A stretch of DNA of 64,000 bases from an uncultured bacterium. GTDB lineage: Bacteria; Zixibacteria; MSB-5A5; JAABVY01; JAHJOQ01. A program made the translations under genes and the position numbers. Where the stretch lies: assembly GCA_965369655.1 (NCBI GenBank), contig CBDUQR010000002.1:33857-97856 (forward strand), read 5' to 3'. This document shows positions 3,886 to 34,154 of this stretch, one piece after another (position 1 is the first letter of the stretch; the number at the start of each line of letters is the position of its first letter). The notes under the pieces are model-generated. The model was not told the DNA's origin and ran no database searches. It saw only the letters and a program-made list of their open reading frames with translations.

Positions 3886-4722
3886 ATGAAGTGTTCGACC
3901 AGTATCATCCTGACAATCCTGCTGTCGATTTCGTTTATTGGCAGTACGGCATTGGCACAATTACCGGGGGACTGCAACGGATCTGGAGGAATCGACATCG
4001 ACGACGTGGTTTTAATCACATCCTACTTGTTGGAAGGGGACCAAGTTCCGACACCGGAATCAAGATCGAACTGTGACTGTGACAATAACCCTGGAATCTC
4101 GTTGGCTGATGCAGCGTTTATTATAGAAAGCATCTTCAATGGTCAGCAGTTGTTCCCGCCGACTGGCACAAAACTGACCAGGGGTTCCAGATCGACGATG
4201 TTCACAGGCGGACGGGCTACCGGGCTTCCGGGCATGGACAGGATAACTGTCCACATCGCAGTCGAGCCAAATGAAACCATCAACGGATTTCTGATACCGT
4301 TCTCTTACGCTTCACTGGCAGGCGACGCGGATATAAGCCTGACAAGCGTCGATTTTACGGGTTCCCTTCTTGAAGGATCGATAGTAGCGGTTATTGACGA
4401 TTCGAACAAGGTTCTCATGCTGTATGATGATCCACTTGCTCCGCCGAGTCTTACAGGGGGGACAATTGGACTTCTGGCCACTGTCTACTTCACCCAGAAT
4501 GCTCCCGGGAACGCTGTAGCGCTTCTCAAGACATCGACCGACAGGGTATCGCCGCTGCTCTTCCCGGAAGATTTTGTGAGTGATGATGGAGCACGGGTGC
4601 TTTATCCGGGCTTTGTCGAAAGGCCTATTGGCGATATTGACTGTTCATACTCCGTGGATATTGACGATGTTGTTGGAATGATAGGTTACATTTTTTCCGG
4701 CTTGCCGATCTGTTACTGGTAG
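3886..4722 (+). CDS. Secreted adaptor protein: N-terminal double dockerin-like repeat, cohesin-like beta-sandwich segment, C-terminal single dockerin-like repeat
   Basis: There is an AGGAGG RBS 7 nt upstream of ATG 3886 (the six-frame ORF start at 3847 lacks an RBS). A signal peptide is present (MKCSTSIILTILLSISFIGSTALA). Dockerin-like Ca-binding repeats are GDCNGSGGIDIDDVVLITSYLL, CDCDNNPGISLADAAFIIESIF and a third copy DIDCSYSVDIDDVVGMIGYIF. The central segment (RITVHIAVEPNETINGFLIPFSYASLAGDADISLTSVDFTGSLLEGSIVAVIDDSNKVLMLYDD) has the alternating hydrophobic pattern of cohesin modules. Confidence 0.6.
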   Translation: MKCSTSIILTILLSISFIGSTALAQLPGDCNGSGGIDIDDVVLITSYLLEGDQVPTPESRSNCDCDNNPGISLADAAFIIESIFNGQQLFPPTGTKLTRGSRSTMFTGGRATGLPGMDRITVHIAVEPNETINGFLIPFSYASLAGDADISLTSVDFTGSLLEGSIVAVIDDSNKVLMLYDDPLAPPSLTGGTIGLLATVYFTQNAPGNAVALLKTSTDRVSPLLFPEDFVSDDGARVLYPGFVERPIGDIDCSYSVDIDDVVGMIGYIFSGLPICYW

Positions 4723-4914
4723 CAAAATACCTGGGTCAGGACTGCCTGTCACTCGTCTCAGGACGAACAGGGGTCCTGACCTGTTACTCCTGGATTATCC
4801 TGGCAACGCTCGATGGTATCCATCCTGTTTCGCCATCCGATTTCCGGCATTGAAGAGCGTGTAAGTATTTTATGTAAGCGGCCATGATGTGTATTGATTT
4901 GAAGGAGGATACAC

Positions 4915-6919: not shown

Positions 6920-7327
6920 TCAATTTTCTTTCGATTCATCTCCTTCGTGCGATTCCCTGAACTGCTTCAGCGCTTTCGCAAGAGCTTCCTCGGCCATCAC
7001 CGAGCAATGGTGCTTCACAGGCGGCAGGCCTCCGAGAGCATCGATAACCTGACGATTGGTGATTTCTTCGGCCTCTTCGATGGTCTTGCCCTTGATTATT
7101 TCCGTGAGCATAGATGATGCGGCGATTGCGGCGCCGCAACCGAATGTCTTGAATTTCGCATCGATTATTATACCGTTCTCGACCTTAAGGTACAGCCTCA
7201 TCATATCCCCGCATGCCGGGTTGCCGACATCGGCGATCACGTCGGCATCCTTGATCTCACCCATGTTGCGAGGGTTGGTGAAATGCTCCATCACTGTTTC
7301 TGAATATGGATACAACCTGCCTGACAT
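6920..7327 (-). CDS. nifU: Fe-S cluster assembly scaffold NifU/IscU
   Basis: The protein contains HFTNPRNMGEIKDADVIADVGNPACGDMMRLYLKV…FKTFGCGAAIAASS…KHHCSVMAEEALKAA, the three conserved Cys and His of the U-type scaffold. The start is set at the internal Met (MSGRLYPYSETVMEHF), not at the longer six-frame ORF. Confidence 0.85.
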   Translation of the reverse strand: MSGRLYPYSETVMEHFTNPRNMGEIKDADVIADVGNPACGDMMRLYLKVENGIIIDAKFKTFGCGAAIAASSMLTEIIKGKTIEEAEEITNRQVIDALGGLPPVKHHCSVMAEEALAKALKQFRESHEGDESKEN

Positions 7328-7548
7328 CGATCTTACTCCAACATTGACCCACCCGCCGCTGCGCTCTGGGTGGGCTATAGACTGTTGTCTCAGGCGCACG
7401 TTATATGCGCACATTTTGCCAGCACATATTATACACGAAAATTCTCTTTTTCAAAGGGAAAAAGTGTCCGGTTTTGGACATTACAGATTCGGCTGCGCAG
7501 TCGAGGATATCTTCAGCGAGGAGCAGTTCGAGAGGATCGCGATCGGTA

Positions 7549-15012: not shown

Positions 15013-15522
15013 GTATCTCGATATGTTCAAGCTAATCCTTTCATCAGTACAATGTTACGTCAATACTTGTATCGCACGATACCGCCGAATACTTGAATAG
15101 TCAATTAGAAAATCTTGACGATAATGTCGCGATGAGGGGTAGGTGGCTGCGACTACGTTTCTGCACTTAGTTTGAGCAGGTCACGTAACTCATTGTCCTG
15201 AAGTACGCTCATGGAAATAGTTGATCCAAGTTTTCTCTTGACACATTGCGTGTACCTGTTATATTGAGCATGTTGATTATGGTCCGCTCTCGGGGGATGG
15301 CGGATAGCGGCTGACTGACGGCCGCAGTTGTTCGTAATTACTCGCTTCGTCTGTACCCTTCGTCGAGTTGCATGTGCTTGAGGCTCGAAAGTTTTGTTCA
15401 AGAATACAATGTATGTAGGATTCCAAATTGCTGATAAGGAGGTGAAACAGCACAGGAGTTTATGTGGGGTTTGGTCTGAGGACCACACTTATTTTTTAAG
15501 ACTTGACAACAGGAGGATTTCA

Positions 15523-18500
15523 ATGAAATCTGCGAAATTCTTAGCAATCTTTGTGGTACTTGCGGTTCTCTTTGCCGTTCCTGCGTTCGCGCAGGATACT
15601 GGCGTTCTGGACACCGTCCGCTGGGTACCGGAGAGTACGACGTGGACGATCGATGCCGCAGGAGATTCGCTCTTCTCGATCGAGGTCTTTGGCTGGACGG
15701 ACCAGAGTATTACAGCTCTTTCACTCGGTTTCAAGATCCCGACGAGCTCCGGTGGCGGCACCGGTCATGATGATTCGCTGATAGTGGTTGATTCATTTAA
15801 TTTCACTATGTCGACGGGCTTTCCAGTACCATGGGCCTGGAGCGCGGTGGATTCAGCGCGCTTCGCAGATGATTTTCTACGGCACAGCTTGTACAATGGC
15901 ATCCTGCTCGGACGGATCATGCCGACCTTCCCTGCGAATACATCATCTAAGATTGGTGATCTGTTCATCAATATCCCTGATCCCACCTTGCTGCCATGTG
16001 AGTTCGACATAGCTATCGACTCGGTCTTTTTCCCGCCTGCTGGGGCTTTCAAGTTCTCTCCCTCTGGCGGCTCAGGCTACGCGCCTGAGTATGTAGGTGC
16101 GACAATTCATGTGGTGAACAATATCTGTATTCCTGATGAGGAACCGACAATTTACCTCAATCCGACAAGCTTTACATTTAACGCTGTCGAGAATGGTTCC
16201 AATCCGGTCGCGCAATCACTCAGTATCATTAATACAGGTTCTGGAACACTGAACTGGACAGCATCAGTTGATCAGACATGGTTGACTCTTGCCGCATACA
16301 GTGGTACAGGAGATGGTGCAGTAAATGTATTAGCTAATAGAGGTAGTTTGACTGCTGGCACTTACAATGGTACGGTGACAGTGTCTGATCCTGCGGCGAC
16401 GAATAATCCGCAGACAGCATCAGTGACATTTATCATTGCACCGGCTCCACCTGAGATCGTGCTCGATACGACGAGCTTTACGTTCGATGCAATTGAAGGT
16501 GGACCGAATCCGGATGATGATACTCTCTGGATCTCAAATGGCGGTGGTGGAACGCTCGACTGGTCGGTTGGCGATGATGCAACCTGGCTGACCACTACTC
16601 CCGTTGCGGGTACCGGAGACGGATACACCGTCCTGAGCGTGAATGTCTCAGGCCAGCAAGTCGGCACTCACGTTGCGACTGTTTTTGTCACCGATCCTGC
16701 CGCAAGCAATACTCCTCAGACGGTTGATGTTACACTGAATATTGTATGCGACCCATCTGAGATAGAGGTGACTCCGTTGAGTTTCACATTCGATGCTGTC
16801 GAAGGTGGACCGAATCCACCGGCACAGAATATGTTAATTGGAAGTAGTGGTTCTTGCGACGTCAATTGGACTGCAACGATTATAGCTGGATGGCTTTCAC
16901 TTTCTGAATATTCCGGAACTGCGGCGTCGAGTGTCGATATTTCTGTGGACATCTTGGGATTAGACGCCGGTACTTATGAAGATACTATCGTGATTTCACA
17001 CGATGGGATCAATGAAAGTCCCGTTAAAGTTCCAGTGACGCTGTATGTTAATTGCATTCCGGCAGAGTTGGAGACTTCACCATCGAGCTTCGCTTTTGAT
17101 GCTCAGGAGGATGGCGCAAATCCGACCCCGCAGATCCTGCACATTACAAATGGTGGGACTTGTGAACTATATTGGGGTGCAAGTAATTCTCAGCCCTGGC
17201 TCACGCTTTCTGATTACTCTGGAACTGGCCCCATTGATATCGATGTCATGGTTGATATAACCAGCATGACTGCTGGCGAGTACCACGATACGATTGTCGT
17301 ATTCGATGATGGCAGTCAAATTGACACCATACCTGTTGTGCTCACAATCGGTACAGAGCCGCTGTTGATGGTTGCGCCGAGCGAGCTCAATTTCACCGCT
17401 CCGGATGGCGGACCGAATCCTGCTTCTCAGGATGTTGATATTACATCGACCGACTCGCCTGATACGGAGCTTGAGTGGGTCGTTATTGAGCCTGGCAAGC
17501 CTATCGCCTGGTTGAGTTATGATCCGGCTTTGGGCACCACCCCTTCGGTTATGACTGTCAGTGTAAATATGGATGGGCTGTCTGCGGGTGTTTACAACGA
17601 CAGCATAATGCTTACGAAGAATGTTCCGGACAAGGACGATATCGGCGATACGGTGACTGTCTATGCTGAATTGACGGTTACTGGTGTTCCGGAAATCGAT
17701 CTGATTCCGAATTACTTCTTCTTCACCTGGGAAGAGGGTTCACCGATTGTTCCTGATGACCAGGATATGAATATCACCAACACAGGCTCCGGTACCCTGA
17801 ACTGGACTCTCTATGATACCGAGCTGATTGGCTGGCTTGATCCGTCGGCGTTTTCAGGTACCGCGCCATCGGTGGTGACACTTTCGATAGACACTGGTCC
17901 ATCACTTACAGCCGGCAACATATATGTTGACACGATTGTAGTTGAATGTGCTGATGCGATCAATCCGCTCGAGATTGCGATTGTCGAGCTTGAAGTGACC
18001 GAACCGCCGGTGCTTGACGACGACACGGTCTGGGTTGGAAATACAAGCGGACTTCCCGGCGAGCAGGTTATCGTTCCTGTGACTTTCGCCAACAGTGTAT
18101 ATCTGTCAGGCATCTCACTGCCGCTTATCTTTGACGATATGCTGGCGAAAATCGACAATGGTATTACCTGTGACTCGGTCTCGTTCATCGGGTCGAGGGT
18201 CGACTACATTGGCGCGAAGCCAGTCACGATTGACAATATCAACAAGACTGTACTGGCAGGTGTGATAGTTATTAGCGAGCCGCTAATTCCGGCAGGCAAC
18301 GGCCTGATGGCGAACCTGTATTTCTCGATCGCTCCGGGCGCCGCACCGGGAATCGTTCCGATAGACTCGACGTTTATCCTTCCTGCAAACGAACTGATGT
18401 TCGCTGACAGCCTTGGTGGCGCGATCTATCCGGAGTTCTTCTATGGAACAATTGAGATTCTCGAACCACCTTCGACGGCTTGCCTCGAGGTCAGCGATGG

Positions 18501-20562: not shown

Positions 20563-20574
20563 CAGCCCTTTAAC

Positions 20575-20608: not shown

Positions 20609-20619
20609 GGAGGTGACTC

Positions 20620-21669
20620 TTGAAGAAATTCAAACGTAATATCGCGAGGCTGTTACCTCTCTTGTTGTTGTCAGTCCTTATGGCGTCATCCGCAAGCGCT
20701 CAGGTAATTCCGACAGACCAGTGGGTGCATTTCTGGAGCCCGAGTTCGACCTTAAATGGACAGCCGCTGCCGATTGGAGCGATTGTTGACACATATGATC
20801 CGGACGGCGTACATTGCGGTCGGTTCATCGTCCATACTACCGGTCAGTACGGTTACCTTTCAGTTTACCATGATGATAGTTACACGCCGGGTGTCGATGA
20901 GGGTGCGCTTTCCGGCGATACGATCACAATCATGGTAAATGGCGTACTGGCAGATGTTCTTGGTCCTGACGATCCCGAGTGGACGTTCAACTTCGCATTT
21001 CTGAACATCGACCTGGGCGTTCTGATCAATCTTGCGCTCGAGTTGACTACTCCACTTGACGACGTGGGAGCGCCAAACGGTTTCGTCGATTACACGTACA
21101 AGGTGAAGAATACCGGTGAGGGGATCGATTTCTTCAACCTCGAAGCTGTTTCATCCGGTGGATGGACAGTCGAAATTCTCGGCGGCGACGCCACAGGCTA
21201 CCTGAATCCGGGGGAGGAGACAGATGTAGTCGTGCGAGTCCATGTACCAGGCACTGCCCAGGATGGCGATACCGATGATCTGACTCTGACCGCCAGTTCA
21301 GCTATGGATGCCACCGTATCTGAGAGCGGTACAGTGACGACCTCGGTGATCGAAAGCGCCGCAGGGGATCCCTATGATCCTCTCATTCCGGGCGTGTTTC
21401 ATCTTCGCCAGAACTTCCCGAATCCGTTTAATCCTGTGACGACAATCGAGTTCTCGATCGAAAAGGCGATGGACGTCGAGTTGATCGTTTACAACGTTAT
21501 CGGGCAGGAGGTCAAAACGCTGGCCAACCGTCATCTGGAGATAGGCATGCATCAGTTCGAATGGGATGCCACAGATGAGAGTGGACAGAAAGTTGCAAGC
21601 GGAATCTACTTCTATCGACTTATCACTGATGAGTACGCGAGAACGCGCAAAATGATGCTGATGAAATAA
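20620..21669 (+). CDS. T9SS C-terminal-domain secreted protein (349 aa) sharing the W/CG repeat with the scaffoldin
   Basis: The start is TTG with a GGAGGTG RBS. It has a signal peptide and one copy of the W/CG domain (DQWVHFWSP…PDGVHCGRFIV…YGYLSVYHDD…TIMVNGV). Its T9SS C-terminal domain (FPNPFNPVTTIEFS…GIYFYRL…RKMMLMK) is near-identical in pattern to that of the scaffoldin. Confidence 0.75.
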   Translation: MKKFKRNIARLLPLLLLSVLMASSASAQVIPTDQWVHFWSPSSTLNGQPLPIGAIVDTYDPDGVHCGRFIVHTTGQYGYLSVYHDDSYTPGVDEGALSGDTITIMVNGVLADVLGPDDPEWTFNFAFLNIDLGVLINLALELTTPLDDVGAPNGFVDYTYKVKNTGEGIDFFNLEAVSSGGWTVEILGGDATGYLNPGEETDVVVRVHVPGTAQDGDTDDLTLTASSAMDATVSESGTVTTSVIESAAGDPYDPLIPGVFHLRQNFPNPFNPVTTIEFSIEKAMDVELIVYNVIGQEVKTLANRHLEIGMHQFEWDATDESGQKVASGIYFYRLITDEYARTRKMMLMK

Positions 21670-21692
21670 TTCACCCTGTCCTGTTGTTGAGT

Positions 21693-21727
21693 CGGAGCCC
21701 TTCCCATGAGGAGGGGCTCATTTTTTT
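21693..21727 (+). terminator. Probable Rho-independent terminator
   Basis: An imperfect GC-rich hairpin (GGAGCCCTTCCC..GGAGGGGCTC) is followed by ATTTTTTTC. Confidence 0.45.
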
Positions 21728-23852: not shown

Positions 23853-23993
23853 TTTCACTCGGCGGCTGTTTGTGTTTTGATAGAAAGGCTGTGCTTCGCC
23901 GCTCCTTCAGGTGAGTGATTTCACAGGCGGCGGTGCATGGCCTTATCTCTATTCGATTAGCGTTATGTGTCGGGGAGGGCCGTTCTTAATCGC

Positions 23994-24629
23994 ATGGACA
24001 CATCCTGGATCAAGACCGCAAAGCGTTTGGAGAACGATCTTGCGGAATATCGCAGCCTGAAGATACGGCACGCCGAAGATGACACACTTGCTGCAATAAA
24101 AGCTCAACTCGATCGGCGCTACGCTCAGATGGCGGCGTTTGCTCTGGGGCTGCCTGATGCAGATATTAGTTTCGACTGCGACCTCGAATCGATGACCGAG
24201 CAATGGGTCGGCGTTGAAGGTCTCCGGTCGGTATTCGGACCCTCAGCCATTTCATCCTCACCGCCGTATATCTCAGCCGAACTGATCGGCTATGCCGGGA
24301 AACTCACCGATAGAAGTATAGCTACGGGTGTTTCCGACATGCCGGATCCCGTCGATAAGGGCGGACAGGTTACATATACATCCGCTCGAGCGCCGATGCT
24401 CGCTGATCATCTTCTGCAAAAATACGCAAGGAGAACTCTGCCGTCTAATGGCGTGTTTCAGGATGCACAGAGACTCGCAGAGGATTTCGCGAGTCGCAAC
24501 AGCGCAGCACATATCCAGACTGTCGAGCGTCGCATTGGTTGCGGGGTCAGGCTGGATGCGGCTCAATCAAAGTATGATCTGGAGGCCCGAGGTGCAGATT
24601 CGCTGCCGAGTTTTTGCCATATCAAGTAG
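23994..24629 (+). CDS. Hypothetical protein
   Basis: The 211-aa ORF has ordinary composition and no recognised domain. Its start is uncertain (ATG 23967 or 23994). Confidence 0.45.
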   Translation: MDTSWIKTAKRLENDLAEYRSLKIRHAEDDTLAAIKAQLDRRYAQMAAFALGLPDADISFDCDLESMTEQWVGVEGLRSVFGPSAISSSPPYISAELIGYAGKLTDRSIATGVSDMPDPVDKGGQVTYTSARAPMLADHLLQKYARRTLPSNGVFQDAQRLAEDFASRNSAAHIQTVERRIGCGVRLDAAQSKYDLEARGADSLPSFCHIK

Positions 24630-24661
24630 CGCTGTCTCAACAGTTATGCTGATAATCGCGA

Positions 24662-26017: not shown

Positions 26018-26109
26018 GTCGTCCCCAATTGTTGCACACAGTCGGCAGCGTGCGGCGTGCGTCGATTTTGTTGTTGCTATATCTGCACGATCTGTTTTTT
26101 AGGTTACTT

Positions 26110-27251: not shown

Positions 27252-27282
27252 AAAGGAGCGACCCGTTAGGGCCGCTCCTTTG
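27252..27282 (-). terminator. Rho-independent terminator of 27332-30541 (this copy has one stem mismatch)
   Basis: The plus strand reads AAAAGGAGCGACCCGTTAGGGCCGCTCC. On the minus strand the hairpin is followed by a T-tract. The terminator of the paralogue (30847-30878) has the same sequence. Confidence 0.5.
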
Positions 27283-27331: not shown

Positions 27332-30300
27332 TTAGCAGCAGGCAGCCGGATCGGGCGCTGGTCCTCCACCGAAGATGTAGTTGATCAGATACACTACATC
27401 ATCGATGTCGATACCGCCCAAACCGTTGGCATCACCGCAACAGATATGATCCACAGGCTCTGGTCCGCCACCGAAGATATAGTTGATCAGATACACCACA
27501 TCATCGATGTCGACACCACCAGAACCGTTAGCATCGCCCGAAACGCAATCGGACACAGGCTCACAACCCGGACAGTCAATGTTAGCACAGATCCAGGTCT
27601 TACCCTTATCGATGAGATTTTGCAGATCTGAAAGGCCTGTAAGGCTCGAGGCCTTCACCTTGCAGTATACGACGCACTCCTCTGCTGCAAGTGTGAGATC
27701 CTGAGCGATGACGTACACCGAATTGAGGTCCTCTACTGAATCCGAGGCGAGAAATCCGGTATGTGTAGCCAACAGATTGCCTATTTCGGCAGGTACATAA
27801 CCGGAGTTATCATACACCCAGGTGTCGTTTTCGAGGACGATGGCACCAACGATATCACCACAGAAGGATGCGCCGCCATAGTAGTCCTCGTAAGGCGAAC
27901 TGCCGGCGGGACCATACTGGTAGACCATCTGTCTGTCTTCATCGACTCCGGACTGGTTGTCACTGCCGTCTTCGCCGTCCGGTATATCCCAGTCGATACC
28001 TTCACCGAGATGGATGGTGATAGCGGCATCGGTGTTGTTGCAGACTTCAACGCGCTCGATCAGTACACAGACATCCGGGTGCTTCGGCACGTACCACTCA
28101 ATCACACCGGTGATGGCTGAGTCTGGAGTAGCCCACTCGCCGTGAGCGTAGTCGTAGTTGACATCATCCACAAGTATCAGCGAGTCTAAAGCGACGAAGC
28201 TGACTTTGCTGTTGGAGCCGTCGAACATCGAGAAGAATGTCTGAGAGACGTCGTCAGCATATGTCACGATGATACCCTCGTCGTACATTGGCGCGAACTC
28301 TTCGAGGAACCAGAACATATTGCCGAGATCACTGCGTTGAGCAACACCGGCTCTCGGGACGTTCCAGACGCCGATAGACCAGCAAGCGGTCGACAGAATT
28401 TCGTATTCCGGCGGGAAGTACTTACAGGCGACCAGAAGGTTGACAGGAATGTCGACTTGATCGGAACCTTCAGTACTGGTCAGACTGACACTCACGTTAC
28501 CGATTTCGGCGGTTTCGTTGGCCACCGGGCCAACGTCCACGGTGATAGTGGCTACGGTATTGATACCAGCCGTCACCGTACCGGTACCGCCGGTGATGCT
28601 CATCCAGCTTTCAGTTTCGCTTACAATGTAGCCGATCTCGACGTTACCGGTGTTGACGATAACGACATCAAACGACGTCGTAGTCGGCATCGTGCAGTCG
28701 GTACCGCTCGTGGGAGAGATTATCACAGACTGGTCCTCAGGAGCGACCGAATAGCTGAAAATGGCTTCCGGAGTGAAGCATGGGTACGTGGCGTAGAGAA
28801 CCTCGTTCTCGGTTTCTTCTCCCTCATCGTGAACGAACGAGCCAGCGTCATGGTCGCTGACGTAGAAGAGGTGCAGTACACCAGACGAGTATTTGGCCAT
28901 CGATCCGAAGTTCTCGTTGTGGCATGCACCGGCCACACAGCCGTCGGAGTATGTATTGGTCAGGTTGACATAAGTGCCGAGCTTGACCGGGACGCCGCTG
29001 CCAGCGGTCGTCAGTGTGTCGAATTCGTCCAGGGTGCCGTCGGGACCCCATGTGATGCCGCCATCGCTCGATGCAGTCAGGCAGAATTCGCCGTTTGCAT
29101 AACCATTTGCGGAGCAATCACCGTTGTTGTCACCACGGGGCCAGGTTCCAAAACGAGTAAACGAAACGTACATGTTGCCGTCGCATTCGGAGATGTTGAT
29201 TCTGGAAATGGCGCCGAGACCACCACCGATACCGCCGCTGCAGAATCCAGTCGGGGAGGTAGCGTCGAGAACGCGCGATATGACGTTGCTGGACTGATCC
29301 CAGTGCCACATATTGCCGCGGAACAGCGGCTGGCAAGGATCATCTTCTCTGAAATCAGGAGTCAGCCAAATGATGTGAAGGTCCCCGTCAGAGTCGTAGA
29401 CGGCTGATATTTCCGATTGAGCCTTGTGCACAAAATTGATGGGGTCAAGTGTTCCTCCCTCGGTGTAGTCAGTGATGTTGACTTCCGAACCCCAGGTGGC
29501 GCCGCCGTCAGTCGATTCCATGTAGACTATGTCGTGTTGTACCCACTGGAAGTTATTGAGATCGCCGGCAGGGTTGCCATCGCCATCACAACTGTTTCTC
29601 GGGTCACCCTGCTCGTAGAAAGGTTTGCACCAGATGAGGGCCACGTCGTCCGATGTCGGAGCGGGATCAGAGCGAACAGTAGCATTGACCGTATGGGAAG
29701 CATCGATGTAGAGGCCGAGCGTGTCGGTAGAGGTACCGGGGCACTCAGCGAGATCACCGTCAATATACCGATAGTAGATGATCGATTGTATCGACTCGTC
29801 AGGAAGAGCCACCGGCGGCGACTCGGTTGAGACTATGTGCAGTATCTCTTCGCCGGTTGTCAGTTTCTGGAACTCACCTACCGGCCAAATGTATGCATCA
29901 CCTTCATTTGTGCCGGACATTTCTCCCTGGCAGTTCGGTGGACCCGGCGCCCAGCGACTCACGTCAGGAAGGGCTTGAGGAAAGTAGCCGGACGGTGGCA
30001 TCATATCTATGCCCGACCTTGTGGAATAGAGCGCCGAACCCGGGCCTGCATGCCAGAATCCGACCGCAACACCGGCGTCGGTGACGTCAATAGTGGTATA
30101 TCCGCCATTGTTGGCAGATGCTGAATTCCCGGTGTGGCCCCACACCCATGCGCTGGGAGTAGTGATTTTGCGAGAGTTGTAATATATTCTCCGAAAACCG
30201 CTATGATCAGTCGGATGGCCTCTCATCCAGAGAAAGTGAACATATTCCAAACCGCTACCCTGGAAGTTCGGCGTGTAAGCGATCTGCCTCCCCATCGTGC

Positions 30301-30541
30301 CGTTTTTTTGATATTCGTAGTAGGTCACGCCGACTGTGTCGCCGATTGGATTCTGACGCGAAGCAGCGCCTGAAGGGCCGAGCCTCGGGCCGCTCGGTGT
30401 GTCATCACCGGCGATGCTCTTGTAAGGTTTCATCTTGTAGGACTGGCTGGTGGCGTCATCGACATTGGCGATGGCCGAACCCGCAAAGATCAAGAGTGTG
30501 ATCATCGCGATAGCCAGTACAAAATTCTTGCTGGAAATCAT
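27332..30541 (-). CDS. Secreted BNR-repeat (sialidase-like beta-propeller) protein with a C-terminal tandem dockerin-type repeat; paralogue A, 1069 aa
   Basis: It has a signal peptide (MISSKNFVLAIAMITLLIFAGSAIA). BNR motifs are present (STDGGATWGS, SSDGGITWGPDG). The C-terminus is GDANGSGGVDIDDVVYLINYIFGGGPEP…GDANGLGGIDIDDVVYLINYIFGGGPAP, two canonical dockerin Ca-binding segments. It is about 80% identical to 30915-34154 over the C-terminal third. Confidence 0.8.
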   Translation of the reverse strand: MISSKNFVLAIAMITLLIFAGSAIANVDDATSQSYKMKPYKSIAGDDTPSGPRLGPSGAASRQNPIGDTVGVTYYEYQKNGTMGRQIAYTPNFQGSGLEYVHFLWMRGHPTDHSGFRRIYYNSRKITTPSAWVWGHTGNSASANNGGYTTIDVTDAGVAVGFWHAGPGSALYSTRSGIDMMPPSGYFPQALPDVSRWAPGPPNCQGEMSGTNEGDAYIWPVGEFQKLTTGEEILHIVSTESPPVALPDESIQSIIYYRYIDGDLAECPGTSTDTLGLYIDASHTVNATVRSDPAPTSDDVALIWCKPFYEQGDPRNSCDGDGNPAGDLNNFQWVQHDIVYMESTDGGATWGSEVNITDYTEGGTLDPINFVHKAQSEISAVYDSDGDLHIIWLTPDFREDDPCQPLFRGNMWHWDQSSNVISRVLDATSPTGFCSGGIGGGLGAISRINISECDGNMYVSFTRFGTWPRGDNNGDCSANGYANGEFCLTASSDGGITWGPDGTLDEFDTLTTAGSGVPVKLGTYVNLTNTYSDGCVAGACHNENFGSMAKYSSGVLHLFYVSDHDAGSFVHDEGEETENEVLYATYPCFTPEAIFSYSVAPEDQSVIISPTSGTDCTMPTTTSFDVVIVNTGNVEIGYIVSETESWMSITGGTGTVTAGINTVATITVDVGPVANETAEIGNVSVSLTSTEGSDQVDIPVNLLVACKYFPPEYEILSTACWSIGVWNVPRAGVAQRSDLGNMFWFLEEFAPMYDEGIIVTYADDVSQTFFSMFDGSNSKVSFVALDSLILVDDVNYDYAHGEWATPDSAITGVIEWYVPKHPDVCVLIERVEVCNNTDAAITIHLGEGIDWDIPDGEDGSDNQSGVDEDRQMVYQYGPAGSSPYEDYYGGASFCGDIVGAIVLENDTWVYDNSGYVPAEIGNLLATHTGFLASDSVEDLNSVYVIAQDLTLAAEECVVYCKVKASSLTGLSDLQNLIDKGKTWICANIDCPGCEPVSDCVSGDANGSGGVDIDDVVYLINYIFGGGPEPVDHICCGDANGLGGIDIDDVVYLINYIFGGGPAPDPAACC

Positions 30542-30846
30542 AGCTTCTTTCCCTCTGTTGAAGTGAAAAGTTACTTACTTTCATAACATCGACTCCGGCG
30601 ACTTAATTCATCACCGGAACTGATTGAGGATTAAGATTCCTCGGGGCAATCTCTGATCCGATTGAACATATTCCCTCCTCTGTTACAAACAGTTTGGCGT
30701 ACTTAAGAGAGCGGTGAGTATTCTTCTACTATTAGTATAATAATTGCAACTGCTTACAAGTCAAGACAAAAAGAACATCACAGGGGAGCGGTTGCGGCGT
30801 GTGCTCAGTGGGCGGTGCGCTGGGGACAGGCCTGTTTCCAGGCAGT

Positions 30847-30878
30847 GAAAAAAAGGAGCGGCCTGTTAGGGCCGCTCC
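30847..30878 (-). terminator. Rho-independent terminator of 30915-34154
   Basis: GGAGCGGCC-TGTTA-GGGCCGCTCC is a perfect 9-bp stem. It is preceded on the plus strand by an A8 run, which is a T8 run after the hairpin on the minus strand. Confidence 0.55.
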
Positions 30879-30914
30879 CATTTGGTCTTCATCTGTTGCC
30901 TGATTCGAAATCAA

Positions 30915-33900
30915 CTAACAGATATCAACGGGCGGAGGTCCTCCACCGAAGATGTAGTTAATCAGGTAGACTACGTCATCGATGTCGACGCCACCAGAAC
31001 CATTTGCGTCGCCGCAGCAATTATCCTGCACAGGCGGAGGTCCGCCACCGAAGATGTAGTTAATCAGATAGACTACGTCATCGATGTCGACACCGCCACT
31101 GCCGTTTGCGTCACCAGGCACGCAGTCGGGGCCACTGCTAACACAGCCGGGACAGTCGATTTCCGGTGTGTCGGCGATGAATTCCTTGCCCTTATCGATG
31201 AGATTCTGCAGATCCAAAAGGCTTGTAAGGCTCGAGGCCTTCACCTTGCAGAACGTGGTGCAGGCCTGTGCATCGAGGGTAAGATTCTGAGCGATGACGT
31301 ACACCGAATTGAGGTCCTCGGCTGGGTCCGGATTTGGGGCGACAAATCCGGTATGTGTAGCCAGCAGATTACCTATGTCGGCAGGTATGTAACCGGAGTT
31401 CGGATACACCCAGACATCGTTTTCGAGGACGATGGTACCGACGATGTCAACGCAGAAGGATGCACCACCGTGGTAGTCCTCGTAAGGCGAACTGCCAGTG
31501 GGACCATGCTGGTAGACCATCTGTCTGTCGGTATCGACTCCGCAATTGTTGTCAGATCCATCATCTCCATCCGGGAAGTCCCAGTCGATACCTTCACCGA
31601 GATGGATGGTGATAGCAGCATCAGAGTTGTTGCAGACTACGACGCGCTCGATCAGCACACAGTACACCGGGTGCTTCGGCGTGTACCAGTCGATAGTGCC
31701 GGTGATGACAGAGTCCGGAGTGGCCCACAGGCCATTGGCCTGTTCATAGGTGGAATGGTCTGTAACAGTCAATGGTCCCATGGCTATGAAGCTGGCATCA
31801 CTGTCAGAGCCGTCGAACATCGAGAAGAATGTCTGAGAGACATCCTCAGCGTATGTCAAGATGAGACCCTCGTCATACATCGGAGCAACATCCTCGACAA
31901 ACCACCACATGTTGCCCTCGTCATTTCTCTGAGCGAGTCCGGCTCTCGGAACGTTCCAGACGCCGACTGACCAGCAGTGTGTCGAGATCAGGGCATATTC
32001 GGGCACATAGTACAGGCACTCGACATGCGCCGTGACATCAACCACAATTCCCGATGCACTGCCAGCGGAGCTGGTCAGGTCGATTGTTACCGTCCCAGGG
32101 TATTCGCCCTCGGCCCCGATCGGACCAACTGTCATGACGACATCAGCCGTTGGATTGATGCCGGCAGTGATTGTACCACTACCGGAAGCAGGATTCAACC
32201 ATGACTGGTCGGATGTGAACGTATAGTTGATCGGAACGTTTCCTGCGTTCGTGATCGTAATAGTGAAGTCGTCGGTGTATTCGATAGTACAGTCGGGTAC
32301 GCCATTCGGTGCGATCGGCACGAACGCGCTTGATGGATCAACTCTGTAATCGAACGTACCTTCCGGCTCGAAGCACGGATATGTCATGTACATATATGCG
32401 TTATTTGTGTATTCACCTTCCGCATCCACAACGACGGCTGCGCCGGGATGGTTGTCGTCAATGTACGCGATATGTACGACGTCGGTCGAGTACTTGGCCA
32501 TGCTTGACCAGTGTTCGCTGTGGCAATCGCCAGCCACGCAATCGTCAGTGCGAGTGTTGGTCACGTTGACTGCCGTGCCAGTTTTCACTGCGGTACCTGT
32601 TCCTCCGGTCGTGAGGTAGTCGTATGGAGGAGCGGCAGCGTCCGGACCCCACGTGATACCACCGTCGCTGGAACCTGTCAGGAAGATGTCACCGTTGAGA
32701 AACATCAGATCCGAGTAGTCTCCACCAACACTGTCATGAATAACCATGGCAGGGTCCATTGTTGTGTCAGGATGAGCGCCGAAACGGGTGAACGAAACAT
32801 AGAGCCTCTCGTCACACTCGGAGATATTCGGCTTGCTGGTCATTATGTTCCACACACCGGTGTTCGAGAAAGTACCACCGGGTCCTCTGAAGAGGAAGGG
32901 CATCGTGGCGTCGTAGACCGGGGTGATTTCCTGGTTGAAATCATCCCAATGCCACATCATGGTGGTATAGTAGCTTCCTTCACACGCACCGGCAGCGGGC
33001 CATACCGGAGTATTCCAGACAATGTGCAGTGTGCCGAGATGGTCATACAGCGCAGTCACATCTGTATACGCCATGTACTTGATCTCACTGATCGCGAGAG
33101 TGCCGCCGTCTGAGTAATTGGTGATGTTGGTCGGTGTCGCATCCCAGGTCACGCCGCCATCATTGGATTCGAAGTAAGCGACGTCGTGCTGCCACTGTGT
33201 GTACTCGCAATCATTATTGGGATGGTTAGGATCAGGATACATATCCTTTAGATACACGATGGCGACCTTATCCGAACCCGGGTCGGATCGGACTACCGGG
33301 GTGATGTTCTGGTCCTCGGTCATCCAGCGACCGAGAGTATCCGTAGATGTACCCGTGCACTCGTCCGTGGTATCGTTCACAATACGGTAATAGATGAAAG
33401 ACTGTATCGTGGCTGCCGGGGGTATAGGATCCCCACCCGGGTTCTCGGTGGATATGACGTGATAGACGTCATTTCCGTCGACATTGTCATACTCTATGAC
33501 CGGCCAGAGGTATTCGCTTTCCAACTCATAACCATCCTCACCTTCGCCCTCGCAGTTTGGCGGAGCCGGTTGCTGAAGCTTGGAGAACGGGGTGTTCGGC
33601 GGCATTAGGTCCTTGCCAGCATATGTGAAGTAAAAACCGGCGAGGCCCTCATGCCAGGAGGCGATTGCGGCGCCTTCGCTATTGACGTCGATTGTCGTAT
33701 ATCCGCCATTAGCGCCGGAGAATGATGTGCCGGCGTTATCATCGCCGTGCCTGTGAATCCATGCCTGCGGGGCACTCAACTTTCTTGCGTTGTAACGGAT
33801 ATACCTTGTCGCGCCAGGGGCGTTCCTCCACATCCAGACAAAGTGAATATATGGATGCCCATTTAGATCTGGGGTGTAAGCAATCTGTCTGCCCATTGAG

Positions 33901-34154
33901 CCGTTGTGCTGGAAGTCGTAGTATGTCAAACCTGCGGTATCACCGGGAGGCTGGGGGACAGGGCCGAAGCGTGACGGGCCGAAACGCGGCACGTCAGCGC
34001 CGATAAGTTCATCGGATCCGCCAGTTACAGCCTGAGGGGTCAATTGGCTCTCTGGACGGACGTTACTGATTTCACTTTCGATTGCCATCGCAGGTGCGGC
34101 AAGCATAAGCAGGATCGCCACCGCAAGGCAAAAGACTTTTGAATTTTCTGTCAT
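30915..34154 (-). CDS. Secreted BNR-repeat beta-propeller protein with a C-terminal tandem dockerin-type repeat; paralogue B, 1079 aa
   Basis: The start is set at MTENSKVF, with a GGAGAGG RBS. It has a signal peptide and BNR motifs (SNDGGVTWDA, SSDGGITWGPDA). The C-terminus is GDANGSGGVDIDDVVYLINYIFGGGPPP repeated twice. Confidence 0.8.
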   Translation of the reverse strand: MTENSKVFCLAVAILLMLAAPAMAIESEISNVRPESQLTPQAVTGGSDELIGADVPRFGPSRFGPVPQPPGDTAGLTYYDFQHNGSMGRQIAYTPDLNGHPYIHFVWMWRNAPGATRYIRYNARKLSAPQAWIHRHGDDNAGTSFSGANGGYTTIDVNSEGAAIASWHEGLAGFYFTYAGKDLMPPNTPFSKLQQPAPPNCEGEGEDGYELESEYLWPVIEYDNVDGNDVYHVISTENPGGDPIPPAATIQSFIYYRIVNDTTDECTGTSTDTLGRWMTEDQNITPVVRSDPGSDKVAIVYLKDMYPDPNHPNNDCEYTQWQHDVAYFESNDGGVTWDATPTNITNYSDGGTLAISEIKYMAYTDVTALYDHLGTLHIVWNTPVWPAAGACEGSYYTTMMWHWDDFNQEITPVYDATMPFLFRGPGGTFSNTGVWNIMTSKPNISECDERLYVSFTRFGAHPDTTMDPAMVIHDSVGGDYSDLMFLNGDIFLTGSSDGGITWGPDAAAPPYDYLTTGGTGTAVKTGTAVNVTNTRTDDCVAGDCHSEHWSSMAKYSTDVVHIAYIDDNHPGAAVVVDAEGEYTNNAYMYMTYPCFEPEGTFDYRVDPSSAFVPIAPNGVPDCTIEYTDDFTITITNAGNVPINYTFTSDQSWLNPASGSGTITAGINPTADVVMTVGPIGAEGEYPGTVTIDLTSSAGSASGIVVDVTAHVECLYYVPEYALISTHCWSVGVWNVPRAGLAQRNDEGNMWWFVEDVAPMYDEGLILTYAEDVSQTFFSMFDGSDSDASFIAMGPLTVTDHSTYEQANGLWATPDSVITGTIDWYTPKHPVYCVLIERVVVCNNSDAAITIHLGEGIDWDFPDGDDGSDNNCGVDTDRQMVYQHGPTGSSPYEDYHGGASFCVDIVGTIVLENDVWVYPNSGYIPADIGNLLATHTGFVAPNPDPAEDLNSVYVIAQNLTLDAQACTTFCKVKASSLTSLLDLQNLIDKGKEFIADTPEIDCPGCVSSGPDCVPGDANGSGGVDIDDVVYLINYIFGGGPPPVQDNCCGDANGSGGVDIDDVVYLINYIFGGGPPPVDIC

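What the first reader, a model, noticed from the sequence alone, without database searches (positions are those of the whole stretch)
3886..34154. Candidate non-cellulosomal cohesin-dockerin surface-assembly system coupled to type IX secretion
The window holds all parts of a cohesin-dockerin interaction network but none of the Clostridial context. There is a 1679-aa scaffoldin-like protein with a cohesin-like module and a T9SS C-terminal sorting domain (15523-20562), and a second T9SS-sorted protein sharing a novel domain with it (20620-21669). There are two large secreted BNR-propeller proteins that each end in a tandem dockerin-type Ca-binding repeat (27332-30541, 30915-34154), and a small secreted dockerin-cohesin-dockerin adaptor (3886-4722). 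T9SS C-terminal-domain cargo is covalently attached to the outer membrane surface in FCB bacteria. A cohesin on a T9SS-anchored scaffold could therefore recruit dockerin-tagged BNR/sialidase-like enzymes into a surface complex. From the sequence alone, such a modular, anchored assembly looks new for this lineage.
Basis: partly seen in the sequence, partly recalled or inferred. Interest (0 to 1): 0.85.

Follow-up and report, generated by a model that had tools for sequence, protein, structure and literature searches.

The report
Cohesin-dockerin surface kit in Zixibacteria
An uncultured Zixibacteria genome encodes real but very divergent cohesin and dockerin "plug-and-socket" modules, with the sockets on proteins that carry a type IX secretion tag. 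They probably hang non-cellulolytic proteins on the cell surface, an arrangement already inferred from genomes in one sister phylum but never tested.

Summary
All five ORFs exist at the stated coordinates and every module call survives testing.

- **Cohesins:** the two putative cohesins miss Pfam's threshold on their own. They belong to a family of at least 325 protein clusters. The family profile hits only cohesins among solved structures (best E 2e-9), and the AlphaFold models (pLDDT 93 and 86) match only cohesin structures.
- **Dockerins:** they match Pfam Dockerin_1 and solved type I dockerins.
- **T9SS tags:** both C-terminal sorting domains pass TIGR04183.
- **Lineage:** Candidatus Zixiibacteriota.

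Comparative data support a working link:
- At least 71 of 156 family members combine cohesin with a T9SS C-terminal domain (CTD).
- The propeller cargo family carries either a dockerin or a CTD at its C-terminus.
- One related MAG has a minimal cohesin-CTD gene directly upstream of a cargo gene.

Caveats:
- The five genes form four separate transcription units among housekeeping genes.
- Binding, anchoring and T9SS machinery are untested.
- The cargo is not shown to be a sialidase.
- The "dockerin-cohesin-dockerin" adaptor ends in only half a dockerin.
- The same concept was published for Cloacimonadota in 2021.

Verdict: a new member of a kind so far known only from genome inference. Interest is moderate.

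The parts
3740..3768 (+). Promoter-like site upstream of P1 (TTGACT-17-TATAAT with TG)
   Evidence: 11 of 12 consensus matches. It lies between the AcrB stop (3689) and the P1 start (3886). This is a consensus match only.
3886..4722 (+). P1: 278-aa secreted adaptor made of signal peptide, dockerin, cohesin and a single C-terminal F-hand repeat
   Evidence: The architecture is conserved in 13 proteins of about 280 aa.
3964..4161 (+). P1 N-terminal dockerin (aa 27-92), with two F-hand repeats (DCNGSGGIDIDD... and DCDNNPGISLAD...)
   Evidence: Pfam Dockerin_1 scores 26.8 bits against a cut-off of 22.9, covering profile positions 1-55 of 57. The best PDB hit is 5m2o_B, a group I dockerin, at E 1.6e-4. 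The model shows helices 38-50, 57-63 and 73-85.
4174..4635 (+). P1 cohesin module (aa 97-250)
   Evidence: It is 27% identical to the P2 cohesin over 139 aa, E 4e-7. The family HMM gives E 2e-34. The AF2 model has pLDDT 86.5, and the top 36 Foldseek PDB hits are all cohesins.
4639..4710 (+). P1 C-terminal single F-hand (dockerin half-repeat), GDIDCSYSVDIDDVVGMIGYIF
   Evidence: The window dockerin HMM matches one repeat only, E 5e-4. The repeat is conserved across the P1 family. The model shows a single helix at 259-271.
15238..15265 (+). Promoter-like site upstream of P2 (TTGACA-16-TATATT with TG)
   Evidence: the best site in the 20-kb scan, 11 of 12 matches. This is a consensus match only.
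15523..20562 (+). P2: 1679-aa T9SS-sorted scaffold-like protein
   Evidence: NCBI names its closest homologues 'T9SS type A sorting domain-containing protein [Ca. Zixiibacteriota]'.
15586..16173 (+). P2 N-terminal degenerate cohesin-like module (aa 22-217)
   Evidence: An HMM built from the N-terminal cohesins of 39 homologues matches in two colinear pieces: aa 22-96 (E 6e-5) and aa 163-217 (E 1e-8). Orthologues have a clear cohesin at this position.
16144..17967 (+). Six BACON-like Ig repeats (aa 208-815)
   Evidence: Pfam BACON_2 scores 122.5 bits. The repeat boundaries come from a self-HMM.
18001..18504 (+). P2 cohesin module (aa 827-994)
   Evidence: Pfam Cohesin gives only 17 bits. The family profile matches PDB cohesins, best 4uyp_A at E 2.2e-9. 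The AF2 model has pLDDT 93.3, and the top 34 Foldseek PDB hits are all cohesins, with TM up to 0.86.
18478..18996 (+). Seventh BACON-like repeat (aa 986-1075) and a CarboxypepD_reg-like domain (aa 1092-1158)
   Evidence: CarboxypepD_reg scores 27.4 bits, below its cut-off of 32.3.
19033..20220 (+). Two copies of the uncharacterised 'X' domain (19033-19308 and 19933-20220) flanking two 'GWNL' repeats (19363-19884)
   Evidence: There is no Pfam or PDB sequence match.
20275..20559 (+). P2 T9SS type A C-terminal sorting domain (aa 1585-1679)
   Evidence: TIGR04183 scores 37.3 bits (cut-off 23) and PF18962 scores 33.2 bits (cut-off 27).
20620..21669 (+). P3: 349-aa protein with signal peptide, X domain (20692-20973), an Ig-like middle and a T9SS CTD (21382-21666). 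It is co-transcribed with P2.
   Evidence: The P2-P3 pair is conserved in L046, L047 and L048. The intergenic gap is 57 nt with no strong terminator-like hairpin in it; a weak 5-pair one on the opposite strand at 20565-20582 was listed.
21695..21719 (+). Terminator-like hairpin after P3
   Evidence: 10-bp stem with 7 GC pairs, followed by a T-run.
27252..27281 (-). Terminator-like hairpin after P4
   Evidence: 13-bp stem with 8 GC pairs.
27332..30541 (-). P4: 1069-aa secreted protein. It has an Asp-box propeller-like N-terminal region (about 28772-30364), a BACON-like Ig domain (28469-28720), an unknown C-terminal domain (27572-28459) and a dockerin (27344-27550).
27344..27550 (-). P4 dockerin (aa 998-1066), with two near-identical F-hand repeats GDANG[SL]GG[VI]DIDDVVYLINYIFGGG
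   Evidence: Pfam Dockerin_1 scores 19.8 bits (cut-off 22.9), covering profile positions 2-56 of 57. The regex and HMM both hit it.
30854..30879 (-). Terminator-like hairpin after P5. P4's own promoter-like site lies at 30737-30764.
30915..34154 (-). P5: 1079-aa paralogue of P4 (53% identity) with the same architecture. Its dockerin is at 30918-31130.
   Evidence: Dockerin_1 scores 26.7 bits. PDB phmmer returns type I dockerins, best 5nrm_B at E 7.5e-5.

Best explanation
The window comes from a Candidatus Zixiibacteriota chromosome. It holds several parts of a genome-wide, non-cellulolytic cohesin-dockerin network whose cohesins sit on T9SS-sorted proteins.

**Proposed mechanism.**
- P2 and its operon partner P3 are exported by Sec. 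Their type A C-terminal domains then take them across the outer membrane through the T9SS, and they stay on or near the cell surface.
- P2 displays one functional type I-like cohesin on a stalk of BACON-like Ig repeats. It also carries a degenerate cohesin-like module at its N-terminus.
- P4 and P5 are large Asp-box propeller proteins of unknown activity. Each ends in a symmetric two-repeat dockerin that binds such a cohesin in a Ca-dependent way and so tethers the protein to the surface.
- P1 carries both a dockerin and a cohesin and acts as an adaptor or extender.
- In this lineage the dockerin serves as an alternative to the T9SS CTD as a C-terminal surface-attachment tag.

**Shown here.** The identity of every module, the operon structure, the lineage, the wide spread of the cohesin+CTD architecture, and the dockerin/CTD alternation on one cargo family.

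**Inferred.** Which dockerin binds which cohesin, that P2 stays attached to the cell, that a T9SS is present, and how the CTD-less dockerin proteins leave the periplasm.
For: **Cohesin identity.**
- An exhaustive profile search found 325 proteins at E<=1e-3.
- The family profile against PDB sequences gave 25 hits, of which 24 are cohesins; the best is E 2.2e-9.
- 17 of 48 domain segments and 25 of 63 full-length members hit PF00963, best E 2.6e-59.
- The AF2 models (pLDDT 93.3 and 86.5) have only cohesins as their top 34 and top 36 Foldseek PDB hits. Type I cohesins fit best, at TM 0.8-0.86 normalised to the target.

**Dockerin identity.**

**CTD identity.**

**Lineage.** The closest locus is 82% identical and lies in a Zixiibacteriota MAG.

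**Evidence for a functional link.**
- At least 71 of 156 cohesin-family proteins end in a T9SS CTD. Ten of them are minimal proteins of about 270 aa: signal peptide, cohesin, CTD. Pfam independently finds Por_Secre_tail in 36 of 63 members.
- The P4/P5 propeller family occurs as a roughly 1100-aa form ending in a dockerin (Zixibacteria and some MAGs labelled Ignavibacteria). It also occurs as a roughly 680-aa form ending in a T9SS CTD in other FCB-like MAGs.
- In L039, a Zixibacteria MAG, a cohesin-CTD gene lies 71 nt upstream of a P4-family gene.
- In L006 a gingipain-like Peptidase_C25 ends in a dockerin. C25 gingipains are the classic T9SS CTD cargo (established knowledge).

**Gene organisation.** The P2-P3 operon is conserved.
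Against: - No binding test or co-folding was possible, so the specific P2/P1 to P4/P5 pairings are guesses.
- Scaffold and cargo genes are not syntenic elsewhere. Four P2-orthologue loci with up to 10 kb of flank hold no dockerin ORF. Of 37 P4-family loci, only L039 holds a cohesin.
- The window has no T9SS machinery gene, and I could not search the rest of the genome.
- P4 and P5 have a signal peptide but no known way across the outer membrane.
- P2 has only one convincing cohesin.
- Many type A CTD cargos in other bacteria are released rather than anchored (established knowledge).
- P1 holds a cohesin and dockerins in one chain. Its compact model (pTM 0.77) leaves open self-binding or polymerisation rather than adaptor function.
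Confidence: 0.55

Rival explanations
1. The modules are real but these five proteins are not partners. The genome holds many cohesin and dockerin genes. The P4/P5 dockerins bind cohesins encoded elsewhere, such as minimal cohesin-CTD anchors, and the P2 cohesin recruits other cargo such as dockerin-tagged peptidases or adhesins. The co-occurrence of the five genes in one 64-kb window is then incidental.
For: - The genes form four separate transcription units among housekeeping genes.
- Scaffold-cargo proximity is not conserved.
- Dockerin-tagged proteins of many kinds cluster in related loci.
- The repeats of the P1 dockerin differ from those of P4 and P5 at the usual recognition positions (my reading of the sequences). 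This suggests more than one specificity.
Against: - In L039 a cohesin-CTD gene does sit beside a P4-family gene.
- This rival changes only who binds whom, not the nature of the system.
Confidence: 0.25
2. P1 and similar proteins that hold both a cohesin and a dockerin self-assemble head to tail, or fold back on themselves. They would form an extracellular matrix or coat, or an auto-inhibited state, rather than acting as adaptors. The network would then be structural (coat, biofilm or adhesion) rather than a means of enzyme display.
For: - 13 proteins have the dockerin-cohesin-dockerin layout, 19 have cohesin-dockerin, and some have dockerin-cohesin-dockerin-cohesin-dockerin.
- The P1 model is compact, with pTM 0.77 for the whole chain.
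- Cargo and scaffold domains are mostly Ig, cadherin, FG-GAP or BACON-like, and no glycoside hydrolase was seen.
Against: - C25 and reprolysin-like peptidases also carry dockerins.
- Model coordinates and PAE were not available, so intramolecular docking is not shown.
Confidence: 0.12
3. The 'cohesin' and 'dockerin' modules are only fold relatives with other roles. The beta-sandwich would be a carbohydrate-binding or spacer domain, and the dockerin-like repeats would be Ca-dependent stabilising caps. No cohesin-dockerin complex would form.
For: - The window cohesins fall below Pfam's cut-off.
- Sequence identity to solved cohesins is only 15-22%.
- Many non-cellulosomal cohesin/dockerin-like modules have no shown partner (established knowledge, Peer et al. 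2009, cited in PMC8542988).
Against: - Profile and fold searches return cohesins exclusively, not CBMs or other sandwiches, until well down the lists.
- Cohesins and dockerins co-occur in the same proteins and genomes and on a shared cargo family. That is hard to explain without an interaction.
Confidence: 0.08

Closest known systems
Putative cellulosome-like complex of Candidatus Stygibacter (Cloacimonadota), Williams et al. 2021, PMC8542988
   Same: - It is a diderm FCB-group lineage known only from MAGs.
- It has a non-catalytic scaffoldin-like protein with cohesins and a T9SS-type conserved C-terminal domain for surface attachment.
- Signal-peptide proteins end in dockerins, including a gingipain-like C25 peptidase. 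A dockerin-tagged C25 peptidase also occurs in the related Zixibacteria locus L006.
   Different: - The Stygibacter scaffoldin is 3,755 aa with tandem cohesins and CBM2/CBM3 modules, and its cargo includes GH18 and GH57 enzymes.
- P2 has one good cohesin, BACON-like Ig repeats and no CBM.
- The cargo in the window is an Asp-box propeller of unknown activity.
- Small dockerin-cohesin-half-dockerin adaptors, minimal cohesin-CTD anchors and the P2-P3 operon with the X domain are not described there.
- Both systems are inferred from sequence alone.
Clostridial cellulosomes (e.g. C. thermocellum CipA with OlpB/SdbA anchors; type I cohesin-dockerin pairs such as 1ohz, 3ul4, 4dh2)
   Same: - The cohesin fold is the same, with TM 0.77-0.86 to type I cohesins.
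- The dockerins are two-repeat F-hand modules. The near-identical repeats in P4 and P5 are as expected for a dual binding mode.
- Adaptor proteins carry both a cohesin and a dockerin.
   Different: - The host is a Gram-negative FCB bacterium, not a Firmicute.
- Anchoring would be by T9SS CTD, not by SLH domains or sortase.
- No glycoside hydrolase or CBM was found on any part.
- The scaffold has a single cohesin.
- The cohesins are too divergent for Pfam's threshold.
Non-cellulosomal cohesin-dockerin pairs, e.g. the Clostridium perfringens toxin complexes in which the NanJ sialidase dockerin binds cohesin (X82) modules of GH84 enzymes (Adams et al. 2008, from memory), and the survey by Peer et al. 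2009
   Same: Cohesin-dockerin pairing is used outside cellulose degradation. A BNR/Asp-box protein carries the dockerin.
   Different: - The C. perfringens proteins are secreted toxins and enzymes of a Gram-positive bacterium, with known catalytic domains and measured binding.
- Here the catalytic identity is unknown and the cohesins carry T9SS tags.
T9SS type A CTD cargo attachment in Porphyromonas gingivalis (gingipains cleaved by PorU and linked to A-LPS)
   Same: P2 and P3 have an N-terminal signal peptide and a C-terminal type A sorting domain above the TIGR04183 cut-off.
   Different: - The lineage is Zixibacteria, where T9SS machinery, the PorU sortase and an A-LPS acceptor have not been shown.
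- Here part of the cargo repertoire carries a dockerin in place of the CTD.

Membership tests
Cohesin (Pfam PF00963; type I cohesin fold) | Significant match to cohesin sequence models | tested here: met
   Alone, the P2 segment scores 17 bits against a cut-off of 24.1, and the P1 segment gives no hit. By family the feature is met. A profile of 48 homologous segments hits PDB cohesins only among its significant matches (best E 2.2e-9). 17 of 48 segments and 25 of 63 full-length homologues hit PF00963, best E 2.6e-59.
Cohesin (Pfam PF00963; type I cohesin fold) | Nine-stranded flattened beta-sandwich (jelly-roll) superimposable on solved cohesins | tested here: met
   The AF2 model of the P2 module has pLDDT 93.3 and pTM 0.86. 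Its top 34 Foldseek PDB hits are all cohesins, with E down to 1e-9, TM up to 0.86 and rmsd 2.0-2.5 A. For the P1 model, the top 36 hits are all cohesins.
Cohesin (Pfam PF00963; type I cohesin fold) | Ca-dependent, high-affinity binding of a dockerin | not testable with these tools
   No complex prediction or experiment was available.
Dockerin type I (Pfam PF00404) | Two tandem F-hand repeats of about 22 residues, each with a 12-residue Ca-binding loop (D-x-[DN]-x-[DNS]-G-...-D) followed by a helix, and a match across the whole model | tested here: met
   P1 scores 26.8 bits and P5 26.7, against a cut-off of 22.9, and the matches span the model. P4 scores 19.8 bits with the same repeats. PDB phmmer hits are type I dockerins. 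The P1 model shows the three-helix layout. P1's C-terminal element has only one repeat and does not meet this feature.
Dockerin type I (Pfam PF00404) | Binding to a cognate cohesin | not testable with these tools
   Not tested.
T9SS type A CTD cargo (TIGR04183 / PF18962) | C-terminal sorting domain above the curated cut-off, at the extreme C-terminus, plus an N-terminal Sec signal peptide | tested here: met
   TIGR04183 scores 37.3 bits (P2) and 30.9 bits (P3), against a cut-off of 23. PF18962 scores 33.2 bits (P2), above its cut-off of 27, and 26.7 bits (P3), just below it. The signal peptides were read from the sequence; no predictor was run.
T9SS type A CTD cargo (TIGR04183 / PF18962) | T9SS machinery (SprA/Sov, PorV, PorU, GldK-N) encoded in the same genome | not testable with these tools
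   None of the roughly 45 window genes scanned is a T9SS component. The only indirect support is that CTD proteins are frequent in Zixibacteria loci and that NCBI annotates them as T9SS-sorted.
T9SS type A CTD cargo (TIGR04183 / PF18962) | CTD cleavage and covalent attachment to the cell surface | not testable with these tools
   This needs proteomics or biochemistry.
Cellulosome | Scaffoldin with multiple cohesins and a cellulose-binding CBM, plus dockerin-bearing glycoside hydrolases | tested here: not met
   P2 has one cohesin, a degenerate one, and no CBM. No GH or CBM family was found on P1-P5, on 63 cohesin-family proteins, or on 9 dockerin proteins from related loci. It works like a cellulosome's assembly principle but is not a cellulosome.
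GH33 sialidase (for P4/P5) | Asp-box (S-x-D-x-G-x-T-W) repeats | tested here: met
   There are two canonical boxes, STDGGATW and SSDGGITW, and both are conserved across the family. The family profile gives local hits to sialidase Asp-boxes at E 3e-6.
GH33 sialidase (for P4/P5) | Global similarity to the sialidase catalytic propeller, with the Arg triad and the Tyr/Glu nucleophile pair | tested here: inconclusive
   The matches cover only 25-60 residues around the Asp-boxes. BNR Pfam models score below their cut-offs. Only one Arg is invariant in 17 and in 25 homologues.

The most novel reading that the evidence does not exclude
**Hitch-hiker secretion.** In this reading the dockerin is not only a surface tether but a detachable substitute for the T9SS signal. 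Dockerin-tagged proteins lack a CTD (P4, P5, C25 peptidases, adhesins). They would bind cohesin-CTD carriers in the Ca-containing periplasm and be carried through the T9SS translocon with them. The carriers would be the abundant minimal proteins of about 270 aa (signal peptide, cohesin, CTD) or P2 itself. One CTD would then serve many cargos.

**Points consistent with it.**
- The same propeller family alternates between a CTD and a dockerin.
- The minimal cohesin-CTD proteins have no other evident role.
- One such gene lies directly upstream of a cargo gene.
- No export route for the dockerin proteins was identified.

**Points against it.** Nothing tests it directly. The size of the folded complexes argues against it, and an unexamined T2SS could do the job.
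Probability: 0.08. Interest if true: 0.85.

Novelty: new member of a known kind. Interest (0 to 1): 0.45.

Why it matters
If the network works as proposed, the cohesin-dockerin principle is a general device for decorating the outer surface of diderm FCB bacteria, not a cellulose-degrading speciality of Firmicutes. The decorations would be proteases, adhesins and propeller proteins, and the device would be plugged into the T9SS.

The practical lesson is about annotation. The cohesins of this family mostly fall below Pfam's threshold, and NCBI names the proteins only as T9SS-sorted. Such systems are therefore under-counted in candidate phyla. A family profile like the one built here recovers hundreds of clusters.

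The dockerin/CTD alternation on one cargo family gives T9SS researchers a concrete question: how do CTD-less partners reach the surface? It also offers designer-scaffold engineers a divergent set of cohesin-dockerin pairs that may not cross-react with existing ones.

The idea is not new in itself. It was inferred for Cloacimonadota in 2021, and nothing here has been tested by experiment.

Tried and rejected
- A plain Pfam scan of the cohesin segments gave only a sub-threshold hit for P2 and none for P1.
- A word-indexed homologue search with the P2 cohesin found nothing. With the 48-sequence profile it found only 3 proteins. That tool is blind to this family, and the exhaustive search was needed.
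The one genome scan was therefore spent on the P4/P5 alignment.
- A metagenome scan with P2 alone found nothing. It worked with an alignment of orthologues.
The cargo fold remains unknown.
- The afdb50 fold library was not available.
- Exact look-ups of AcrB and P4 found no record. The look-up of the last window gene gave only short contigs with polysaccharide-synthesis genes. No T9SS genes were reached.

**Domains that stayed unidentified**
- The P4 C-terminal domain profile against the PDB gave no hit.
- The X domain gave no Pfam hit and no PDB hit.

**Literature and RNA scans**
- No paper joins Zixibacteria with dockerin or with the T9SS, and none joins Latescibacteria with cohesin and dockerin.
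- Peer et al. 2009 is not held in the library.
- There are no tRNA or Rfam matches in the window.

**Hypotheses rejected**
- Thrombospondin or generic EF-hand identity for the dockerins: the matches span the whole dockerin model and hit dockerin structures.
- An unrelated beta-sandwich for the cohesins.
- A cellulosome proper: there are no CAZymes or CBMs.
- A single operon or island: the genes form four transcription units and GC content is uniform at about 0.49-0.55.

Full report
**1. What is in the sequence**

Each starts with a hydrophobic Sec-type leader; this is my reading, and no predictor was run. The rest of the window is ordinary chromosome. It encodes AcrB/HlyD efflux, NifS/NifU, a CHASE-PAS hybrid kinase, PdxS/PdxT, PTS EIIA, PEGA and PP2C proteins, an AI-2E transporter, LigA, ExbB/TonB/TolB, Lgt, an S41 peptidase and polysaccharide-synthesis genes. 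GC content is uniform at about 0.49-0.55. There are no tRNA or Rfam hits.

The five genes lie in three places and form four transcription units.
- P1 has its own strong promoter-like site at 3740-3768.
- P2 and P3 are 57 nt apart. They share the best promoter-like site of the region (15238-15265) and a strong terminator right after P3 (21695-21719).
- P4 and P5 each have their own promoter-like site and terminator.

So this is not one island or operon.

**2. Module identities**

*Dockerins.*
- Pfam Dockerin_1 spans the full model. It passes its cut-off in P1 and P5 and falls just short in P4, whose repeats are almost identical to those of P5.
- phmmer against PDB sequences returns dockerins almost exclusively.
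- A Ca-loop-plus-helix pattern, run over all six frames, hits only these three ORFs.
- The P4 and P5 dockerins have two nearly identical repeats (GDANGSGGVDIDDVVYLINYIFGGG). That is the pattern expected for a dual binding mode.
- The thrombospondin and generic EF-hand alternatives are rejected.

*T9SS CTDs.* TIGR04183 passes clearly in P2 (37.3 bits) and P3 (30.9 bits), against a cut-off of 23.

*Cohesins.* This was the weak point of the finding.
- On its own, the P2 segment scores 17 bits against PF00963 (cut-off 24.1). The P1 segment scores nothing.
- The two segments are homologous to each other, at 27% identity over 139 aa and E 4e-7.
- An exhaustive profile search with both segments found 325 representative proteins at E<=1e-3 and 88 at E<=1e-10.
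- A 48-sequence alignment of these modules (A2) matched 25 PDB sequences. Of these, 24 are cohesins, and the best is ScaC cohesin 4uyp_A at E 2.2e-9.
- 17 of the 48 segments hit Pfam Cohesin and no other family.
- AlphaFold2 on A2 gave a confident model, with pLDDT 93.3 and pTM 0.86. Its top 34 Foldseek PDB matches are all cohesins. Type I cohesins fit best: E about 1e-9, TM up to 0.86 normalised to the target, rmsd 2.0-2.5 A.
- A full-length P1 model (13-sequence alignment, pLDDT 86.5) shows a three-helix dockerin, a beta-sandwich and one C-terminal helix. Its top 36 PDB matches are again all cohesins.
- Both modules are therefore divergent type I-like cohesins.

- P1 ends in a single F-hand repeat, which is half a dockerin. 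This repeat is conserved across the P1 family.
- P2 also has a degenerate cohesin-like module at aa 22-217. Orthologues have a clear cohesin at that position.

*Full P2 layout*: signal peptide, degenerate cohesin, six BACON-like Ig repeats, cohesin, a seventh BACON-like repeat, a CarboxypepD_reg-like domain, an X domain, two 'GWNL' repeats, a second X domain, and the CTD.

**3. Lineage and relatives**

A scan of one genome per GTDB species with the P4/P5 alignment gave 37 loci. The closest, at 82% identity, and most of the others are Candidatus Zixiibacteriota MAGs. NCBI names the closest P2 homologues 'T9SS type A sorting domain-containing protein [Candidatus Zixiibacteriota]' and does not mention the cohesin.

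**4. Evidence that the parts work together**

(a) *Architecture census.* Among 156 proteins carrying this cohesin family, at least 71 end in a T9SS CTD and 50 carry dockerins. Thirteen have P1's dockerin-cohesin-half-dockerin layout. Ten are minimal proteins of about 270 aa: signal peptide, cohesin, CTD. Curated Pfam models on a sample of 63 agree: 36 hit Por_Secre_tail, 25 hit Cohesin (best E 2.6e-59) and 13 hit Dockerin_1. None has a glycoside hydrolase.

(b) *Cargo alternation.* The P4/P5 propeller family comes in two forms. One is about 1100 aa and ends in a dockerin. It occurs in Zixibacteria and a few MAGs labelled Ignavibacteria, often in tandem arrays of two to four. The other is about 680 aa and ends in a T9SS CTD. 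It occurs in Calditrichota-like and unclassified MAGs. The two C-terminal tags are therefore interchangeable on one cargo type.

(c) *Adjacency.* In Zixibacteria locus L039 a gene for signal peptide, cohesin and CTD lies 71 nt upstream of a P4-family gene.

(d) *Other dockerin cargo.* In L006 the neighbour of the P4 orthologue is a gingipain-like Peptidase_C25 ending in a dockerin. Other dockerin cargos in these loci are cadherin/Big_9 adhesin-like proteins, an FG-GAP protein and a reprolysin-like protein.

(e) *Operon conservation.* The P2-P3 pair is conserved in three metagenome contigs.

*Against a tight link.* P2-orthologue loci with up to 10 kb of flank contain no dockerin ORF. P4-family loci other than L039 contain no cohesin. 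The proximity of scaffold and cargo in this window is therefore not conserved.

**5. Most likely mechanism**

P2 and P3 are exported by Sec and then by the T9SS through their CTDs, and they stay at the surface. The P2 cohesin, and cohesin-CTD anchors encoded elsewhere in the genome, bind dockerins in a Ca-dependent way. P4 and P5 are tethered through their dockerins. P1 extends or bridges the network.

*Shown here:* module identities, gene organisation, lineage, and the comparative patterns in section 4.

*Inferred:*
- Which dockerin binds which cohesin.
- Whether P2 is retained on the cell. Type A CTD cargo is released in some Bacteroidota (established knowledge).
- Whether the genome has T9SS machinery. 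There is none in the window, it could not be searched elsewhere, and no paper was found.
- How the CTD-less dockerin proteins cross the outer membrane.

I put about 0.55 on the overall model. The main rival, at 0.25, is that the modules belong to such a network but these particular five proteins are not each other's partners.

**6. What the cargo is**

P4 and P5 have two canonical Asp-boxes. A 17-sequence family profile hits sialidases in the PDB, but only over the 25-60 residues around those boxes. BNR Pfam models stay below their cut-offs. Only one arginine is invariant, whereas a sialidase needs three. The 300-aa domain before the dockerin has no Pfam or PDB sequence match. 'Sialidase-like enzyme' is therefore not established. 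'Asp-box propeller-like protein of unknown activity' is what the data support.

**7. Comparison with what is known**

- *Assembly principle.* It is that of the cellulosome, but the defining cellulosome features are absent: multi-cohesin scaffoldin, CBM, dockerin-bearing CAZymes, and SLH or sortase anchoring.
- *Non-cellulosomal modules.* Cohesin and dockerin modules outside cellulosomes have long been known (Peer et al. 2009, cited in PMC8542988).
- *Closest precedent.* Williams et al. 2021 (PMC8542988) inferred a cellulosome-like complex from Cloacimonadota MAGs. Its scaffoldin-like protein carries tandem cohesins, CBMs and a T9SS-type CTD. Its dockerin-tagged enzymes include a C25 peptidase.
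- *Literature for this lineage.* I found no paper linking Zixibacteria to dockerins or to the T9SS.

This is therefore a new member, in a new phylum and with different cargo and scaffold design, of a kind so far known only from genome inference.

**8. Verdict**

Novelty is 'new member of a known kind' and interest is moderate (0.45).

The most novel reading still open is hitch-hiker secretion, in which dockerin cargo rides through the T9SS on cohesin-CTD carriers. I give it about 0.08.

Noticed in passing
window 19033-19308, 19933-20220 (P2) and 20692-20973 (P3); also L046, L047, L048, L050-L054: An uncharacterised, well-conserved domain of about 85 aa ('X'; invariant P-T..W, CG, G..G, Y.DD, EG). 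It has no Pfam or PDB sequence match. In the complete proteins I examined it occurs in those ending in a T9SS CTD (several further X-bearing ORFs are cut at contig ends). It is present in up to three copies per protein.
   Followed up: partly
window 15238-21719; L046, L047, L048: P2 and P3 form a conserved two-gene unit. In three metagenome contigs a P2 orthologue is followed directly by an X-domain/CTD protein of about 350-370 aa. The window has one promoter-like site upstream of the pair and one strong terminator after P3.
   Followed up: yes
window 19363-19884 (P2 aa 1281-1454): Two tandem repeats of about 85 aa, each beginning with (E)GWNL. They have no Pfam match and lie between the two X domains.
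   Followed up: partly
L005-L041 (P4/P5 relatives), e.g. L010, L012, L033, L038 versus L015, L017, L022-L029: The Asp-box propeller family ends either in a dockerin (about 1100 aa, often in tandem arrays of 2-4 genes) or in a T9SS CTD (about 680 aa). The choice depends on lineage.
   Followed up: yes
L006:5866-9456 (-), next to the P4 orthologue: A gingipain-like Peptidase_C25, with its propeptide and C-terminal Ig domain, ends in a dockerin rather than the T9SS CTD that gingipains carry in Porphyromonas.
   Followed up: partly
L039:6117-7085 and 7156-8112: A minimal protein made of signal peptide, cohesin and T9SS CTD is encoded 71 nt upstream of a P4-family gene in another Zixibacteria MAG. 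Ten similar proteins of about 255-293 aa occur among the 156 family members.
   Followed up: yes
L042/L043:8733-9707, upstream of the P1 homologue at 10001-10843: A second P1-like gene appears split over two reading frames (dockerin plus first half of the cohesin, then the rest of the cohesin plus an F-hand). It is a frameshifted duplicate or an assembly error.
   Followed up: no
window 27344-27600, 30918-31170 and 3950-4130, 4639-4719: Cysteines bracket the dockerin repeats (CPGC...DC, ICC/NCC between repeats, AACC at the P4 end, C as the last residue of P5; GDCNG, CDCD, DIDCS, ICYW in P1). The CDCD motif is nearly invariant in the P1 family. This suggests disulfide stapling, which is not typical of clostridial dockerins.
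   Followed up: no
window 23001-27168: The genes between P3 and P4 are a DUF4412 protein, a 220-aa protein with no Pfam hit, a protein with two PEGA domains and a CarboxypepD_reg domain, and a PP2C phosphatase. They are probably an envelope or signalling cluster. No link to the finding was established.
   Followed up: no
window 43540-45330 (-) and 56046-63208 (+): A TMEM260-like protein O-mannosyltransferase homologue, and a polysaccharide export/biosynthesis cluster (NTP-transferase/PGM fusion, Wza-like SLBB exporter, DegT aminotransferase). These could bear on surface glycan or glycoprotein synthesis, and hence on what T9SS cargo is attached to. This was not examined.
   Followed up: no
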